Source: the human T2T-CHM13v2.0 reference genome, Homo sapiens. From it: a stretch of DNA of 64,000 nucleotides. The stretch lies in NCBI RefSeq assembly GCF_009914755.1, contig NC_060935.1. The stretch is one strand, 5' to 3'. The position numbers were made by a program, and so were the translations under genes. Each line of letters begins with the position of its first letter. Positions within the stretch are counted from its first letter, which is position 1. Under the pieces are notes generated by a model that worked only from the letters and a program-made list of their open reading frames with translations, was not told where the DNA came from and ran no database searches. Positions 35,729 through 43,239 of the stretch are shown in pieces.

Positions 35729-35850
35729 CGAGTATATTAGCAGTACACTGAAGAATTCCTGAGACATCTTCAATTTCTTCTTTGTTGGAGTGGTCTGCAT
35801 AGGAGCATCTGTTAGAGATATTGTGGAAATTCTTTTCTGCATCCCTGTAA
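35729..35850 (-). CDS. GUCY1A2: GUCY1A2 coding exon 3 (122 nt)
   Basis: Minus strand reads CTAAT (branch-like)...ttgttttcttcttAG|TTACAGGGAT...ATACTCG|GTATAT. In frame with exon 2 it gives (G)YRDAEKNFHNISNRCSYADHSNKEEIEDVSGILQCTANIL(G), matching the GUCY1A2 protein as I recall it. Confidence 0.96.
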
Positions 35851-36283
35851 CTAAGAAGAAAACAAAATTAGCATAAGGAGAAATTTTTGAAAGCATCTGC
35901 GAACGCAACTCATATACACACGCACAAGCACACGCAGTCTATGCTTTCATCATAGTCACATTTTAAAATAAGTGAAGCTTTGAGACATAATTCTGGCATA
36001 ACCCACCATTCACATCAGCATTTGCAGTGTAGACCTGGAACTGGAGGCAACTGTTAACAAGAAAGCTATGTGTGAAAAAAATTGAAGAGAACAAAAAATA
36101 TATCAGCTTTGTACAGCTAATGTATCACTCTGAGAGCACTTCATCAAGGCTAGTGATCTGTTTCTATAAGGAAGCTGCCTAGAAAAGGAAAAGTTAACAA
36201 TGTTAATTTGGTGTCCTGGCATTCAATGGTGTTGAAAGTAAACACACCATAACTTTTGTCACAGTCAAGAAGATAGCAGTATA

Positions 36284-36586
36284 GGCCGGGTGCGGTGGCT
36301 CACGCCTGTAATCCTAGCACTTTGGGAGGCCCAGGCGGGCAGATCACGAGTTCAGGAGATCAAGACCATCCTGGCTAACACGGTGAAACCCCGTCTCTAC
36401 TAAAAATACAAAAAATTAGCCGGAAGTGGTGGCAGGCGCCTGTAGTCCCAGCTACTCTGGAGGCTGAGGCAGAAGAATGGTGTGAACCCAGGAGGCGGAG
36501 CTTGCAGTGAGCCGAGACTGCGCCACTGCACTCCAGCCTGGGTGACAGAGTGAGACTCCGTCTCAAAAAAAAAAAAAAAAAAAAAG
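36284..36586 (+). mobile_element. AluY in intron 2, antisense to the gene, inserted in a MIR
   Basis: AluY diagnostics (gaatggtgtgaacc, ggcggagcttgcag); 16-bp TSD aagaagatagcagtat at 36267-36282 and 36587-36602. Confidence 0.94.
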
Positions 36587-36766
36587 AAGAAGATAGCAGT
36601 ATGGTGTATAAATAACATACACCTGGCAGAATTTGAGTCATGGTCTTACCATTTTCTATCTGTGAGATCCTGAGCAAGTAACCTAATCTCTGTTAGTCTA
36701 AATTTCCTCTCTCATAAAATGGAGGTACCTTCTAGAGTTCTTGTGAGGACTAAATAACACAATGCC
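36587..36766 (+). mobile_element. MIR body; its 3' tail resumes at about 37907-37955
   Basis: ctgtgagatcctgagcaagtaacctaatctctg...tttcctctctcataaaatggagg...ttgtgaggactaaat; tail aaaatgcttactacagtttccagaatgcaggagtcactcaa. Confidence 0.75.
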
Positions 36767-37906
36767 TGTAACTGGATATTGGCTGGGACTTTTTGAGTTG
36801 CCTCTGAATGAGAGCTAAGACAAAAAAGCTGAGGACATTAAAGGCCAAATCCTCCCACATTCCAAAGGGGTAGCCAAGAAGACCAGAGCTCTTCTTCAGG
36901 ACTTAAGAGGAGACTAAACAGCCACTGCCCCTGTCACTCTACCACCAGCTTACAGAAGCAAAAGAACAGAAAGACTTCAAAATAAAATCTTCAGAAGAGT
37001 GAGGAGTTGGCCTAGGAAGAGAGTGCTATGGTACTTTTCCCCCTCCCCTCCTAGAAAAGGAGAAAAGGGGAGTGTTCCCTGCAGAAGTCCAGTTGGTGAG
37101 GGGGGTCCACAGCTGGTAGAGATTGGGGATTACCCATCTCATTCCCCAGTGAACATCTGCAGAGGCAGTGGATTTCCTGATCATACTCCCCTGTCTGACT
37201 GATAAGAGGAAGAAGACTCTGGAGAAAGTTATCGACAAGGAAAAGAAATAGAGCAAAATTGGGAGCAACCTAAAGGCCCACCGTTTGGCAGGGCAAATAT
37301 GTGAATTTCCCATGGGTTAGGGAAGAGAGAGGCAAGCTTGAGTTGTCTGGTTGTCATGGTGCTCTTCCAATCTAGAGGCTGCCAGCCAGGGACAGGGCTC
37401 CCACTAGCAAGACCACGAGAGTGAAGTCCTTAGGTGCAGGAGCTGGGGCATCCAAAAGTGTCAGGGCGGAACTCATACATGCACCCTAGTGAGGGCATGA
37501 CAGCCAAGAGAGGACTGCTACAACCCCAATGAAATTTTCCATTTTCCATTTCATTCATGCCTCACCCAATACATCCGAAGAGAAAGGGACACAGAAAAGA
37601 ATGGCCTGGAGAAGAGGAGTGAAAACCCACATCATACACTCTGTCCTGTATTCCAAGTCTCTTAGGCCAAGTCCTGACCCAGACAGAGAAAGCAACATTA
37701 GAGTCAGACTAGATATGAGAGTAAAAATTTAAATTGGTCTAGAGTGAACTTCATAATTCTTGGAAATACTTGGAAAACAGAGCAATCTGTCTAAGCTAAT
37801 ATCGAAGGGGATGTATCCTAGCATGCTTGATGTGAGTGGAGGGAAAAATAAAAAGGTTTCATGTTTGTACACCTCATTGAGATCAGACTCCAATAAACCA
37901 GTTAGG
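36767..37906 (+). mobile_element. Probable ancient Gypsy-type solo LTR (MamGypLTR2-like)
   Basis: Starts TGTAACTGGATATT and ends AATAAACCAGTTA(GG), an imperfect terminal inverted repeat. AATAAA at about 37847. Splits a MIR cleanly. Family assigned from memory. Confidence 0.55.
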
Positions 37907-40340: not shown

Positions 40341-42519
40341 ATTTATCACATTGCATGAATAAATTATTTTAGCACTCATTTCCCCAACTTGAATGATCTC
40401 TATGAATAAATAAATGAACAAGTGAATGGATAAATTAAGGAACAGAATAATGTTTAAAGATAAAGTGGATAAAGTACAGAGAGGCTATCTTACTCCCTAA
40501 CAGGAAGCCCCATCAGCTACTCCCTCCCAGTCCTTCTGTCTGTGACCCTTCGAAACAGCTGCTCTCCGCGTTGAAGTCTCAGTCTTGGCAGACACAAAAA
40601 GCCTCAGAGAGTTTCTATGGGCAACCAGTATAAGAATCCAAGGAGCAGAACCGTACAATCCTAGAGCTCTGATAAATAAAACAGATTAAGGGCAGAGTTT
40701 TCAAGGAAAGGAAAAGAAGGTTAGTGGTTGAAGGATAATTAAGAAATTAAAAAGAGAAGGGCTAGCTCATACTCTGTTACCTGTTCTGCTTCAACACCTC
40801 AACACAAGGTATTTAAATGCTGAGTTATTTCAAGACAGCTTTAAGCAAGCCCCATTTCAGAGATTAGGAAAAGCATCTCCTTCCCACCCTCACCTGCCAA
40901 AAAATAACTAAAATTATGCTTGTCGGCACTTACTCTCAATTCTCAATACAGGGATTTCAAAATCCCTTTAACTGTAAGAAACACATTCTTTTTCACAATT
41001 AGAGATAGGAAGCCTTAAATTGTATTTTCTTAAGAGGAACAACATACAGCTGTAAACACTTTTTAGTTCGAGGGTGAGTGATATTAGCTGCTCTGCTTTC
41101 TTGATTGTGAAAAGAGAAATAGAAAGTAGAAAGATGGAGAATAAAAGGCAAAAGAGGAAGTTGGACAGGAAAGTCATCAATGAGAAAAAAGGCAAGAAAG
41201 GGGAATACAGTCAAGAAAGGCAAACGTGACAAAATTGCTGCCAACAGGCCCCCTTTGTCTGCATCAGCATGAATGCAAATAAAGTCAGTGAGCAAAGGTA
41301 CTTCAAGTCCAAGAAATCAGCCAACACCCAAGCAAAAATATGTTAATAGGCCTATTTGAATCATGCCAGACATCAAGACCCCTCTTTATACTGGAGTCAA
41401 ACTCTCTGTTTTCTTTATACTGTGTATGCAATAAACAGAACTAGGAAAAGACCATTCATGCAATAGACAAAGAAGCACCACAGACCATGTCTACATAGGT
41501 AGAAGGGGAGGGCTGAGGCAGCCAGCTGGATAAAAGGGAACTCCCTCCATTCTATCAATGGAGAAAAAACTTTTCTGATTATAGCAATATAGTTTGGTTA
41601 TCTATTTTGATCACATTATAAGAGTCCCACTCCAATTTGCCTTGAAGGTATACTTTAGTTCAAAAATGAGAATATTTCATCAGTTATTTTATTTCGAAAG
41701 CGAAAGAGCATTCATAATCCCAGAAAATTAGACTTTGATGATGGATATTGTCATAAAAATATTAATAATAACGATAAACATAAAAGCAAACAGGTATGTA
41801 GTGCTCACCACATACGAGGAACTATTTTAAGTATACTAACTAATTTAATCCAAACACCATACTTGGAAAGCGGCAAATTCAATGAGAGTGATTAAGTTTT
41901 ATTTCAGGATATGTGGAGAAAGATTAATTTGACATTCTTTATCTCCATTAGGATAAACCATTTTAAATCACTAATGGCCTCAAACTAAAAGCCATCTCAT
42001 GAGTTTAAATAATATGTTTTTCCTAGAACTACACTCTTGAGGATAAGTATGACAAAGTTTCAAAGCAATTCCCTTTTAAATGACAATTAACATAATCATC
42101 AAGCACTTAAAGTATACGGCATTGTACTAGGTACCGAGATTATTTTTCCATTAAGATTTCTTCCCTTCTGTTCTGTGAAAAAAAAATCACACTATACCGT
42201 AATAATCAAAATTATGTTATTGATCCCTATGGCAATGGCTATTAGCCATAAATGTTAAATGATCCTGAGAGCAGTTCAAGAAGTACCACAGTTTGAATCT
42301 TGACTTCTCAAAAGTTCTTAAAATCTTACAAAGATAAATCACTGTACCATATAAAGAATACTAACAAGGTAAATTAAAATATATACATTGCCTCTAATGT
42401 CAATAAATTTAATCTAAAAGCTAGATTGCATGAGTAGGTAAATTTAGGCTTTCATACTTGCCAGCTGCTTTCTGCCACAGCCAATTAGAGGTGTACCTCA
42501 TACTCATTTGGAGCTCTCT

Positions 42520-42700
42520 GTTTACAAAATGCTTTCATTGAAATTACCTCATTTAATCATTACATCTAATCCTTGATTTAGTTATTATTATCATCACAGT
42601 TTAAAAAAGAGATAAAGTTACTTAGTAAAAGATCTATTTGCTAGTGAGGCCTTGAAGTCCTGTCTTTTGACATCAAGTCTTCTTACTTTACACCACATCA
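42520..42700 (-). mobile_element. MIR fragment
   Basis: gtttacaaaatgctttcattgaaattacctcatttaatc...gtcttttgacatcaagtc. Confidence 0.55.
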
Positions 42701-43177
42701 CAACCACTTCAAGAAATAGATGATAATAAAGAAAAATATGTAGCACGTGACTCTAAGTAAACTAATTCCTCTCACTGAACTGTGTTAAGGCTGTAGTGAT
42801 TCTTATCAAACTCTACTTAAGGATTCTAAAATCCCATTCAAAGCATCTGGGTTGGTACCAATAAAGCTCACCACATTAGTAAGGCATAATTATATGATTC
42901 AACATCGGAATAAAAGAGTAAGAACATGAGAAGACTGAGAAAAAAAAGAAAAGCAATACCAGAAAGTAATTTCATTTAAAAGAATTAAGCACAAATAAGC
43001 CAAAAGAAATCACTCCAAGGGACTCCCCCAATAAGCCTTCACGCCCCACACTATGAAAACATAGCCACTATAAAATCAGGTTGACCTGGGTAGCAGAAAA
43101 TCACATACTCAACAGCTATGTTTGAGTAATTACCTTTAATTTGTCCCCAATAATAACCGAAATCAATTTTTACTTAC

Positions 43178-43239
43178 CCAATAACTTGATGTTCATAATA
43201 CTGCAGTGTCCTCTTGAGAGTCTGCTGTATCGTCTGAGG
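43178..43239 (-). CDS. GUCY1A2: GUCY1A2 coding exon 2 (62 nt), soluble guanylate cyclase subunit alpha-2
   Basis: Minus strand reads ...ttattctgtAG|CCTCAGACG...GTTATTGG|GTAAGT, with canonical splice sites. Translates to PQTIQQTLKRTLQYYEHQVIG, which I recognise from the GUCY1A2 N-terminal region. Its phase-2 end joins the next exon in frame. Confidence 0.96.

What the first reader, a model, noticed from the sequence alone, without database searches (positions are those of the whole stretch)
35729..43239. Predicted 184-nt exon 2-3 circRNA with a two-lap, three-frame 123-aa ORF whose stop overlaps its own start
Seen in sequence: exon 2 (62 nt) plus exon 3 (122 nt) is 184 nt (3n+1), so each lap of a circle shifts frame. 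The first AUG (43196-43194, context AUUAUGA, A at -3) is in the +1 frame and reads 47 codons to the junction: MNIKLLVTGMQKRISTISLTDAPMQTTPTKKKLKMSQEFFSVLLIYS. Across the back-splice junction (...CUCG|CCUCAG...) it enters the native GUCY1A2 frame for a full 61-aa lap (PQTIQQ...CTANIL). It then crosses again into the third frame (ASDDTADSQEDTAVL) and ends at a UGA overlapping the start codon (AUGA). Total 123 aa. The novel N-terminus has a monopartite-NLS-like PTKKKLK, the tail is acidic, and DRACH motifs (AGACU, GGACA, GAACA) surround the AUG. Established: early exons flanked by long introns (here over 20 kb and over 35 kb) often circularise, and junction-crossing ORFs with overlapping start/stop are described for other circRNAs (e.g. 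circSHPRH). I recall a GUCY1A2 circRNA being reported but cannot confirm its exons. Inference: a circle-encoded protein carrying part of the alpha-2 N-terminal region with no catalytic domain, possibly nuclear or affecting alpha/beta assembly. No expression evidence is visible here.
Basis: partly seen in the sequence, partly recalled or inferred. Interest (0 to 1): 0.8.

Follow-up and report, generated by a model that had tools for sequence, protein, structure and literature searches.

The report
Known GUCY1A2 circle, unproven protein
The predicted 184-base RNA circle from GUCY1A2 exons 2 and 3 is a real, catalogued circular RNA, and its 123-residue reading frame is already listed in a placenta study, but nothing yet shows that the circle itself makes that protein.

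Summary
Exon 2 (62 nt) plus exon 3 (122 nt) gives a 184-nt circle. Its first AUG opens a 123-aa ORF that runs two laps plus 4 nt through all three frames and stops at a UGA overlapping the AUG.

The circle is not new. It is hsa_circ_0008602 / circGUCY1A2, 184 nt, reported as RNase R-resistant, cytoplasmic and AGO2-associated.

The ORF is not new either. A 2024 placenta study lists the identical 184-nt sequence, the identical 123-aa product, junction Ribo-seq reads and two MS peptides.

That evidence is weak. Both peptides lie in residues 1-13. They are equally encoded by a 48-aa alternative-frame ORF on the linear GUCY1A2 mRNA.

The architecture is within chance. An ORF of at least 123 aa appears in 5-10% of frame-preserving shuffles. 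The AUGA overlap is a by-product of a Tyr-Glu codon pair. DRACH motifs and folding energy are ordinary.

Verdict: observation confirmed, already known, translation from the circle unproven.

The parts
43178..43239 (-). GUCY1A2 exon 2 (62 nt). Its 5' end (43239) is the back-splice acceptor side of the circle.
   Evidence: Searches show the AG acceptor and GTAAGT donor. The annotation table came with the finding.
35729..35850 (-). GUCY1A2 exon 3 (122 nt). Its 3' end (35729) is the back-splice donor side of the circle.
   Evidence: Searches show the AG acceptor and GTATAT donor. The exon 2 + exon 3 join equals the published hsa_circ_0008602 sequence.
43194..43196 (-). First AUG of the circle (circle nt 44-46, frame 1). 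It starts the 123-aa ORF on the circle and a 48-aa alt-ORF on the linear mRNA.
   Evidence: It is formed by the native Tyr116-Glu117 codons TAT GAA.
43193..43195 (-). UGA stop of the 123-aa ORF (circle nt 45-47, third frame), overlapping the AUG as AUGA.
43204..43206 (-). CUG in the native frame (circle nt 34-36). It is the start of the 65-aa ORF that the placenta study also lists.
43196..43203 (-). Single 8-mer CAGTATTA (circle nt 37-44), a seed match for miR-200b/c/429 (seed recalled, not from a call). Its last A is the A of the AUG.
   Evidence: One search found one site only. Binding to miR-200c-3p and AGO2 is reported in PMC10478228.
35777..35782 (-). AAGAAG hexamer (circle nt 131-136). 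Fan et al. 2022 name this hexamer as IRES-like.
   Evidence: Such hexamers are expected by chance in any sequence over 50 nt, according to that paper.
21695..21993 (.). Intron-3 arm of the best inverted repeat pair that brackets exons 2-3 (Alu-sized; calling it an Alu is my inference).
   Evidence: pair I1: 299 nt, 87% complementary to 49443-49741.
49443..49741 (.). Intron-1 arm of the same inverted pair.
   Evidence: pair I1. Of the 25 pairs shown, 13 join intron 3 to intron 1.
36284..36591 (.). Intron-2 repeat that pairs with both flanking introns. These competing pairings would loop out exon 2 alone or exon 3 alone.
   Evidence: pairs I5, I11 and I18.

Best explanation
The feature is the already catalogued exonic circular RNA hsa_circ_0008602 (circGUCY1A2). 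It forms when the exon-3 donor back-splices to the exon-2 acceptor. Long flanking introns with inverted Alu-sized repeats probably help this.

The 123-aa, two-lap, three-frame ORF is really there, but it is most likely a geometric by-product. Four things produce it:
- A circle of 3n+1 nt made of internal coding exons always has one fully open lap, the native frame.
- Here the preceding frame also happens to be open.
- The AUG comes from native Tyr-Glu codons (TAT GAA).
- The overlapping UGA comes from the same codon pair.

The ORF has been listed in print, with junction ribosome reads and two peptides. That evidence does not separate the circle from the linear mRNA or from noise. On present evidence the circle is mainly a stable non-coding by-product. 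Translation is at most low-level, and no protein function has been shown.

Shown: the sequence facts, identity with the catalogued circle, and the non-specificity of the published peptides. Inferred: the role of the repeats in biogenesis, and the by-product status of the ORF.
For: **Identity of the circle**
- Three papers give 184 nt and hg19 chr11:106849344/5-106856857. One names it hsa_circ_0008602.
- The supplement sequence is identical to the exon 2 + exon 3 join.
- Published reports: RNase R resistance and cytoplasmic FISH signal, and RT-qPCR Cq about 24.7 in prostate tissue.
- Inverted repeats bracket the exons.

**By-product status of the ORF**
- An ORF of at least 123 aa arises in 5.1% and 10.4% of 20,000 frame-preserving shuffles.
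- All four frame-1 AUGs sit on NAT-G.. native dipeptides: YE, DA, YA and DV.
- DRACH count is 5 against 5.8 expected.
- Circular MFE is -29.4 against -29.9 +/- 4.1 kcal/mol.
- Multi-lap ORFs are common in the same placenta table, for example hsa_circ_0008774_265aa and hsa_circ_32319_87aa.
- Fan et al. report that 67% of circRNAs carry a host-frame ORF over 20 aa and 14% carry endless ones.
- In 14 of 65 orthologue proteins, all from birds, Tyr116 is Phe. The first AUG cannot exist there.

**Weakness of the translation evidence**
- The placenta criterion was at least 2 Ribo-seq reads with a 4-nt overhang. The MS search used a 5% peptide FDR with no protein FDR and was run separately from UniProt. 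Only the protein, not the peptide, had to span the junction.
- Both peptides (residues 1-12 and 5-13) are also encoded by a 48-aa ORF on the linear mRNA.
- Hansen shows that junction reads without phasing behave as noise, and that circRNA peptide FDR rose to 0.67 on re-analysis of another study.
Against: - The placenta study does place this circle among its 528 'translating' circRNAs and among its 139 with MS peptides.
- It reports two overlapping peptides from the frame-1 N-terminus. One starts at the predicted initiator Met although the preceding frame-1 residue is Ile, not Lys or Arg. Two nested peptides at the predicted start are less easily dismissed than one.
- The AUG has A at -3.
- An AAGAAG hexamer, functional in circPFAS, is present.
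- The circle is reported to be cytoplasmic.
- The +1 frame being open over all 61 codons is a 4-10% event, so it is not trivial.
- I could not test codon-level conservation, so selection on the ORF in mammals is not excluded.
- In the text copy I saw, the PRM-validation and trimester columns of the peptide table were blank for every row. I cannot say whether these peptides were among the 32 of 151 validated.
Confidence: 0.68

Rival explanations
1. The circle is genuinely translated, at least in placenta. Cap-independent initiation at the exon-2 AUG yields the 123-aa protein: a 47-aa novel N-terminus, then alpha-2 residues 102-162, then a 15-aa acidic tail. This protein may act as a decoy for partners of the alpha-2 N-terminal region.
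For: - Supplementary Tables 5-7 of PMC11245404 list junction Ribo-seq reads, the ORF and two peptides.
- The AUG has A at -3.
- An AAGAAG hexamer is present.
- The circle is reported as cytoplasmic.
- Precedents exist in circSHPRH, circAKT3 and circ-E-Cad.
Against: - No junction-spanning peptide is reported.
- Both peptides are shared with the linear 48-aa ORF.
- The MS and Ribo-seq criteria were lenient.
- GUCY1A2 is absent from Fan et al.'s held supplements.
- There is no motif or structure enrichment.
- The native part is a fragment of a domain.
- The placenta table itself computes an instability index of 59.5, 'unstable'.
Confidence: 0.2
2. The frame-1 peptides are real but come from the linear GUCY1A2 mRNA. 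Leaky scanning or reinitiation reaches the same exon-2 AUG and makes a 48-aa alternative-frame microprotein.
For: - Joining exons 1-4 gives a 48-aa ORF from this AUG: 47 aa identical to the circle product, one more residue, then a TGA 3 nt into exon 4.
- Only 4 ATGs lie upstream of it. The main start codon lies 346 nt upstream.
- Both published peptides fall within residues 1-13.
Against: - Scanning ribosomes would have to pass the main AUG, which has A at -3, and one further ATG.
- I saw no linear-frame footprint data.
- The peptides may simply be false matches.
Confidence: 0.07
3. The circle's function is non-coding. As published, it binds miR-200c-3p and relieves PTEN repression. This does not exclude the other readings.
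For: - PMC10478228 reports a luciferase effect lost in a site mutant, AGO2 RIP enrichment and cytoplasmic co-localisation.
- An earlier paper predicted miR-200b/c binding.
- The circle carries one 8-mer seed match at nt 37-44 (seed recalled).
Against: - There is only one site on a 184-nt circle, so sponging needs copy numbers comparable to the miRNA's, which were not measured.
- The paper relies on over-expression.
- The same paper reports miR-200c-3p rising after circle over-expression, which sits oddly with sponging.
- The site overlaps the AUG, so binding and initiation there would exclude each other.
Confidence: 0.12

Closest known systems
hsa_circ_0008602 (circGUCY1A2) and its catalogued product hsa_circ_0008602_123aa
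   Same: Identical. Same exons, same 184-nt sequence and same 123-aa ORF.
   Different: Nothing differs in sequence. The genomic span is 7511 nt in this T2T window against 7513 nt in the hg19 coordinates. I infer an intron-2 length difference between assemblies.
circ-E-Cad / C-E-Cad (733-nt circle, 254 aa)
   Same: The circle length is not a multiple of three. The ORF runs more than one round, and a frame shift at the junction gives a unique C-terminal tail: 14 aa there, 15 aa here.
   Different: C-E-Cad has dedicated experimental support according to the review passages I read. The GUCY1A2 ORF also begins in a non-native frame and uses all three frames. It has only catalogue-level evidence.
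circSHPRH / SHPRH-146aa and circAKT3 / AKT3-174aa
   Same: Start and stop codons overlap on the circle: UGAUGA and UAAUGA there, AUGA here.
   Different: As described in the review, those ORFs share sequence with the host protein. Here the first 47 residues are out of frame with the host.
Rolling-circle ORFs (circEGFR; circPSAP, circPFAS and circABHD12 in Fan et al. 2022)
   Same: Translation is proposed to pass the back-splice junction repeatedly, driven by short internal elements such as AAGAAG.
   Different: Those have no stop codon and give concatemers. This ORF ends after two laps plus 4 nt.

Membership tests
Exonic circRNA (back-spliced exons) | Canonical splice sites at the back-splice donor and acceptor | tested here: met
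   An AG precedes exon 2 and a GT follows exon 3.
Exonic circRNA (back-spliced exons) | Sequence identical to a catalogued circle | tested here: met
   The 184-nt join equals the hsa_circ_0008602 sequence in the PMC11245404 supplement. Length and coordinates agree.
Exonic circRNA (back-spliced exons) | Back-splice reads and exonuclease resistance | not testable with these tools
   Reported by others: circRNA-seq in prostate cell lines, RT-qPCR in tissue and RNase R resistance.
Exonic circRNA (back-spliced exons) | Flanking introns able to pair (typical of the family, not obligatory) | tested here: met
   Of the 25 listed inverted pairs of at least 100 nt, 13 join intron 3 to intron 1. The best is 299 nt at 87%.
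Translated circRNA (circRNA-encoded protein) | AUG-initiated ORF crossing the back-splice junction | tested here: met
   The 123-aa ORF crosses the junction twice.
Translated circRNA (circRNA-encoded protein) | Peptide that spans the back-splice junction | tested here: inconclusive
   The one proteomic listing I could read gives two peptides, both within residues 1-13 and neither crossing the junction. Both are shared with a linear 48-aa ORF. GUCY1A2 is absent from the held supplements of a second screen.
Translated circRNA (circRNA-encoded protein) | Phased ribosome footprints over the junction | not testable with these tools
   The circle is listed among 528 circles with at least 2 junction reads. 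I saw no count or phasing for this circle.
Translated circRNA (circRNA-encoded protein) | Internal initiation element (IRES-like element or m6A) | tested here: inconclusive
   One AAGAAG hexamer is present, but such hexamers are expected by chance. DRACH is not enriched. Folding z-score is 0.12.
Translated circRNA (circRNA-encoded protein) | Product lost when the start codon is mutated in a circle-only context | not testable with these tools
   This is a bench experiment. I found no report of it.
miRNA sponge circRNA | Multiple sites for one miRNA, or copy number matching the miRNA | tested here: not met
   One 8-mer site only (seed recalled). I saw no copy numbers in print.
Overlapping ORF under selection (dual coding) | Start codon and open frame kept in orthologues | tested here: inconclusive
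   Protein level only.
- Tyr-Glu is kept in 51 of 65 orthologues. It is replaced by Phe-Glu in 14 of 65, all birds, which abolishes the AUG.
- No obligatory frame-1 stop falls inside the used part of frame 1.
- In 10 of 65 there is an obligatory stop upstream of the AUG, in the unused part.
- Codon-level data could not be obtained.

The most novel reading that the evidence does not exclude
The AUGA overlap makes the circle a self-renewing translation unit. A ribosome that ends the 123-aa chain at the UGA sits on the AUG, one base back, and reinitiates without a fresh internal entry. One rare initiation event would then yield many rounds of protein. The single miR-200 8-mer, which ends on the A of that AUG, would act as an on/off gate, so the circle would switch between AGO-bound and translated states according to miR-200 levels in the tissue.
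Probability: 0.04. Interest if true: 0.6.

Novelty: already known. Interest (0 to 1): 0.2.

Why it matters
If the circle really made this protein, placenta and prostate would contain a 14-kDa product. It would carry the first third of the alpha-2 H-NOX-like region behind a novel N-terminus. That could bear on assembly of the NO receptor.

Both the circle and the ORF are already in print, so this check adds calibration rather than discovery. It adds four points:
- The published peptide evidence cannot tell the circle from the linear mRNA.
- The striking three-frame architecture is what a 3n+1 coding circle gives in 5-10% of shuffles.
- The start/stop overlap follows from one Tyr-Glu codon pair.
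- One silent T-to-C change at window 43195 (TAT to TAC) would remove the AUG and the UGA together without touching GUCY1A2. This offers a clean test.

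Tried and rejected
- **Pfam and PDB on exon translations.** The native and +1 frames gave nothing. The only Pfam hit was noise (UBA_ARI1, E = 0.13). There were no PDB matches. The native frame was settled by homology instead.
- **Orthologue DNA for a codon-level test.** The held genome has no relatives. The search for related loci would not take a 40-aa query. A degenerate pattern scan of genome contigs gave 2 loci, both chance matches in bacterial MAGs with no similarity upstream of the motif. Codon-level conservation therefore stays untested.
- **Short database proteins (P0001-P0004, P0043, P0062).** I checked them for an assembled back-splice junction. 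None has one. They are intron read-throughs or other joins.
- **Forced frame-1 stops from orthologue proteins.** This test has little power. The 10 of 65 hits all lie upstream of the AUG, in the unused part of frame 1.
- **m6A motif enrichment and an IRES-like fold.** Both are rejected.
- **Literature search.** It was badly framed: it required 2 of 4 terms, and no listed paper held circGUCY1A2. It says nothing.
- **Folding or searching the 123-aa product.** Not done, because it is a joined sequence that the tools do not accept. Its structural plausibility rests only on the Pfam coordinates.

Full report
**Observation**

Read on the minus strand, exon 2 (window 43239..43178) is 62 nt and exon 3 (35850..35729) is 122 nt. 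Both have AG acceptors and GT donors. Joined as a circle they give 184 nt.

A script that walks every ATG round the circle found five.
- Four are in frame 1. They give ORFs of 123, 114, 100 and 89 aa, all ending at the same TGA.
- One is in the third frame and gives 12 aa.

The first ATG is at circle nt 44 (window 43196-43194), with A at -3 and A at +4. The stop is a TGA at nt 45-47, overlapping the ATG. ORF plus stop is 372 nt, which is two laps plus 4 nt.

Frames 0 and 1 are both open over the whole lap, so I checked which one is native. The frame-0 translation of exon 3 matched 75 GUCY1A2 proteins, human at 100%. The 61-aa lap is residues 102-162 of a human isoform.

**Is it more than chance?**

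I kept the native frame open and ran two nulls of 20,000 trials each.
- Permuting the order of the native codons left frame 1 fully open in 10.5% of trials. It gave an ORF of at least 123 aa in 5.1% and of at least 100 aa in 21.2%.
- Resampling synonymous codons uniformly gave 3.7%, 10.4% and 30.3%.

All four frame-1 ATGs sit on native dipeptides whose first codon is NAT and whose second begins with G: Tyr-Glu, Asp-Ala, Tyr-Ala and Asp-Val. The AUGA overlap is simply TAT GAA, Tyr116-Glu117.

Seven of 111 single synonymous changes would put a stop in frame 1. By my reading of the list, five of those fall in the part the ORF uses.

DRACH motifs number 5 against 5.8 +/- 1.6 in 2,000 dinucleotide shuffles. 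The circular folding energy is -29.4 against -29.9 +/- 4.1 kcal/mol in 300 shuffles, z = 0.12.

The configuration is in the upper 5-10% of what such a circle gives. It is not an outlier.

**The circle is known**

- PMC10478228 (passages and sections 23 and 25 read) states that circBase circGUCY1A2 lies at chr11:106,849,344-106,856,857 and is 184 nt. It reports RNase R resistance, cytoplasmic FISH signal, AGO2 RIP enrichment and a miR-200c-3p reporter effect.
- PMC6222276 (passages) lists chr11:106849345|106856857, hsa_circ_0008602, exonic, 184 nt, from circRNA sequencing of prostate cell lines.
- PMC7672590 (passages) measured it by RT-qPCR in prostate tissue, Cq about 24.7.
- A rat stroke paper names a circ_Gucy1a2_7 without giving exons.

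Within the window, 31 inverted pairs of at least 100 nt were found and 25 were shown.
- 13 join intron 3 to intron 1. The best is 21695-21993 with 49443-49741, 299 nt at 87%.
- 3 involve an intron-2 repeat at 36284-36591, which would compete.
- 9 lie within one intron.

That these repeats are Alus, and that they promote back-splicing, is inference from established knowledge.

**The ORF is known too**

The supplement of PMC11245404 (Clin Transl Med 2024) was the key source. I read the abstract, sections 9, 10, 13 and 35, part 38 of supplementary file 1, and searched passages. It lists hsa_circ_0008602 in three tables.
- Table S5, '528 translating circRNAs', gives a sequence identical to the join.
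- Table S6 gives two ORFs. One is a 65-aa ORF from a CUG in the native frame.
- Table S7 gives two MS peptides assigned to the 123-aa protein: LLVTGMQKR and a modified MNIKLLVTGMQK.

Searches for circGUCY1A2 (24 papers), for hsa_circ_0008602 (1 paper in main text) and for the coordinates (1 paper) turned up no dedicated study of the protein. A further search was badly framed and says nothing. bioRxiv supplements were closed, and PDFs are not held. Other catalogue listings may therefore exist that I could not see.

**How strong is the published translation evidence?**

The placenta criteria were as follows.
- Ribo-seq: at least 2 unique reads over the junction with a 4-nt overhang.
- MS: a search against the circRNA ORF database run separately from UniProt.
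- A 5% peptide FDR and no protein FDR.
- The protein, not the peptide, had to span the junction.

Of 151 peptides, 32 were PRM-validated. In the text copy, the PRM and trimester columns are blank in every row I saw, so I cannot tell the status of these two.

Both peptides lie in residues 1-13. They cross only the forward exon 2-exon 3 junction, at residue 7.

I fetched exons 1 and 4 from the held genome and joined exons 1-4 in a script.
- On the linear mRNA the same AUG opens a 48-aa ORF. It has 47 residues identical to the circle product, then one more, then a TGA 3 nt into exon 4.
- Only four ATGs lie upstream of this AUG.
- The main start codon lies 346 nt upstream.

Hence neither peptide is specific to the circle.

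Hansen's preprint (abstract and sections 6 and 7 read) argues that junction reads without phasing track data-set noise. It also reports that circRNA peptide FDR was 0.67 on re-analysis of another study. Fan et al. [quoted passage not shown] GUCY1A2 does not occur in the four supplementary files held.

In favour of translation:
- There are two nested peptides at the predicted N-terminus.
- One begins at the initiator Met although the preceding frame-1 residue is Ile.
- The AUG has A at -3.
- An AAGAAG hexamer of the kind functional in circPFAS is present at nt 131-136. By that paper's own estimate, though, any sequence over 50 nt holds such a hexamer.

**What the product would be**

Pfam places HNOB at residues 151-270 of the human protein, starting at profile position 46 of 163. 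The native lap, residues 102-162, is therefore roughly the first third of the alpha-2 H-NOX-like region. It is not a whole domain.

The placenta table computes 13,990 Da, pI 5.87 and an instability index of 59.5.

KKLK within PTKKKLK fits the loose K-K/R-x-K/R pattern (recalled). This is weak evidence for nuclear import.

I did not fold the product, because a joined sequence cannot be handed to the tools.

**Conservation**

Only proteins were available. Of the 75 hits, 65 cover at least 58 of the 61 positions. The other 10 were left out.

| Feature | Count (of 65) | Consequence |
|---|---|---|
| Tyr-Glu kept at 116-117 | 51 | The AUG is possible if the Tyr codon is TAT |
| Phe-Glu at 116-117 | 14, all birds by the names | The first AUG cannot exist |
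| Met followed by a residue whose codons all start with A, at residue 104 or 107 | 10 (rodents, cetaceans, an oryx) | An obligatory frame-1 stop, but upstream of the AUG in the unused part of frame 1 |
| Obligatory frame-1 stop inside the used part (residues 116-162) | 0 | No refutation at protein level |

Attempts to obtain orthologue DNA failed.

**A detail not in the finding**

The circle holds one 8-mer, CAGTATTA, at nt 37-44. It matches the miR-200b/c/429 seed (seed recalled). Its last base is the A of the AUG.

This is presumably the site behind the published miR-200c binding. One site makes a poor sponge. An AGO complex bound there would also cover the start codon.

**Verdict**

The circle is hsa_circ_0008602, and the 123-aa ORF is already catalogued with weak, non-specific translation evidence. 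The most likely reading (0.68) is a real, stable circle whose long ORF is a by-product of its geometry and of native codons.

Rival readings:
- Genuine translation from the circle: about 0.2.
- A linear-mRNA origin of the peptides: about 0.07.
- The published sponge role: about 0.12. This does not exclude the other readings.

Novelty: already known. Interest: low.

Noticed in passing
window 43240-43262 (-): The polypyrimidine tract before exon 2 is a short (TTA)n-type repeat: ...ttattattattattattctgtag. It is a possible length-polymorphic element right at the back-splice acceptor.
   Followed up: no
protein P0003: This is a 156-aa database protein from an unnamed assembled contig. It joins GUCY1A2 exon 2-3 sequence (95% identical) directly to a RING-finger C-terminus (Pfam PF13639 and PF17123, precomputed). 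It could be a chimeric transcript or an assembly artefact in another species.
   Followed up: no
native residues 104 and 107 (exon 2): Rodent proteins have His-Met at 106-107 and cetacean proteins have Met at 104. Their version of the circle would therefore carry an AUG in the native frame, which the human circle lacks. It would offer a different junction-crossing ORF.
   Followed up: partly
window 35729-43239 against hg19 coordinates: The circle's genomic span is 7511 nt in this T2T window but 7513 nt by the hg19 coordinates printed in the papers. This is presumably a 2-nt intron-2 length difference between assemblies.
   Followed up: no
PMC10478228: The paper calls the host gene GUCY1A3 at one place. 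It also reports miR-200c-3p going up after circle over-expression while arguing for sponging. Its figure legend and its text disagree on the direction of the survival association.
   Followed up: no
G000:C4:159043336-159062968: The paralogue on chromosome 4 (by position and similarity presumably GUCY1A1) matched exon by exon. I did not check whether its equivalent early exons also form a 3n+1 unit with an open second frame.
   Followed up: no
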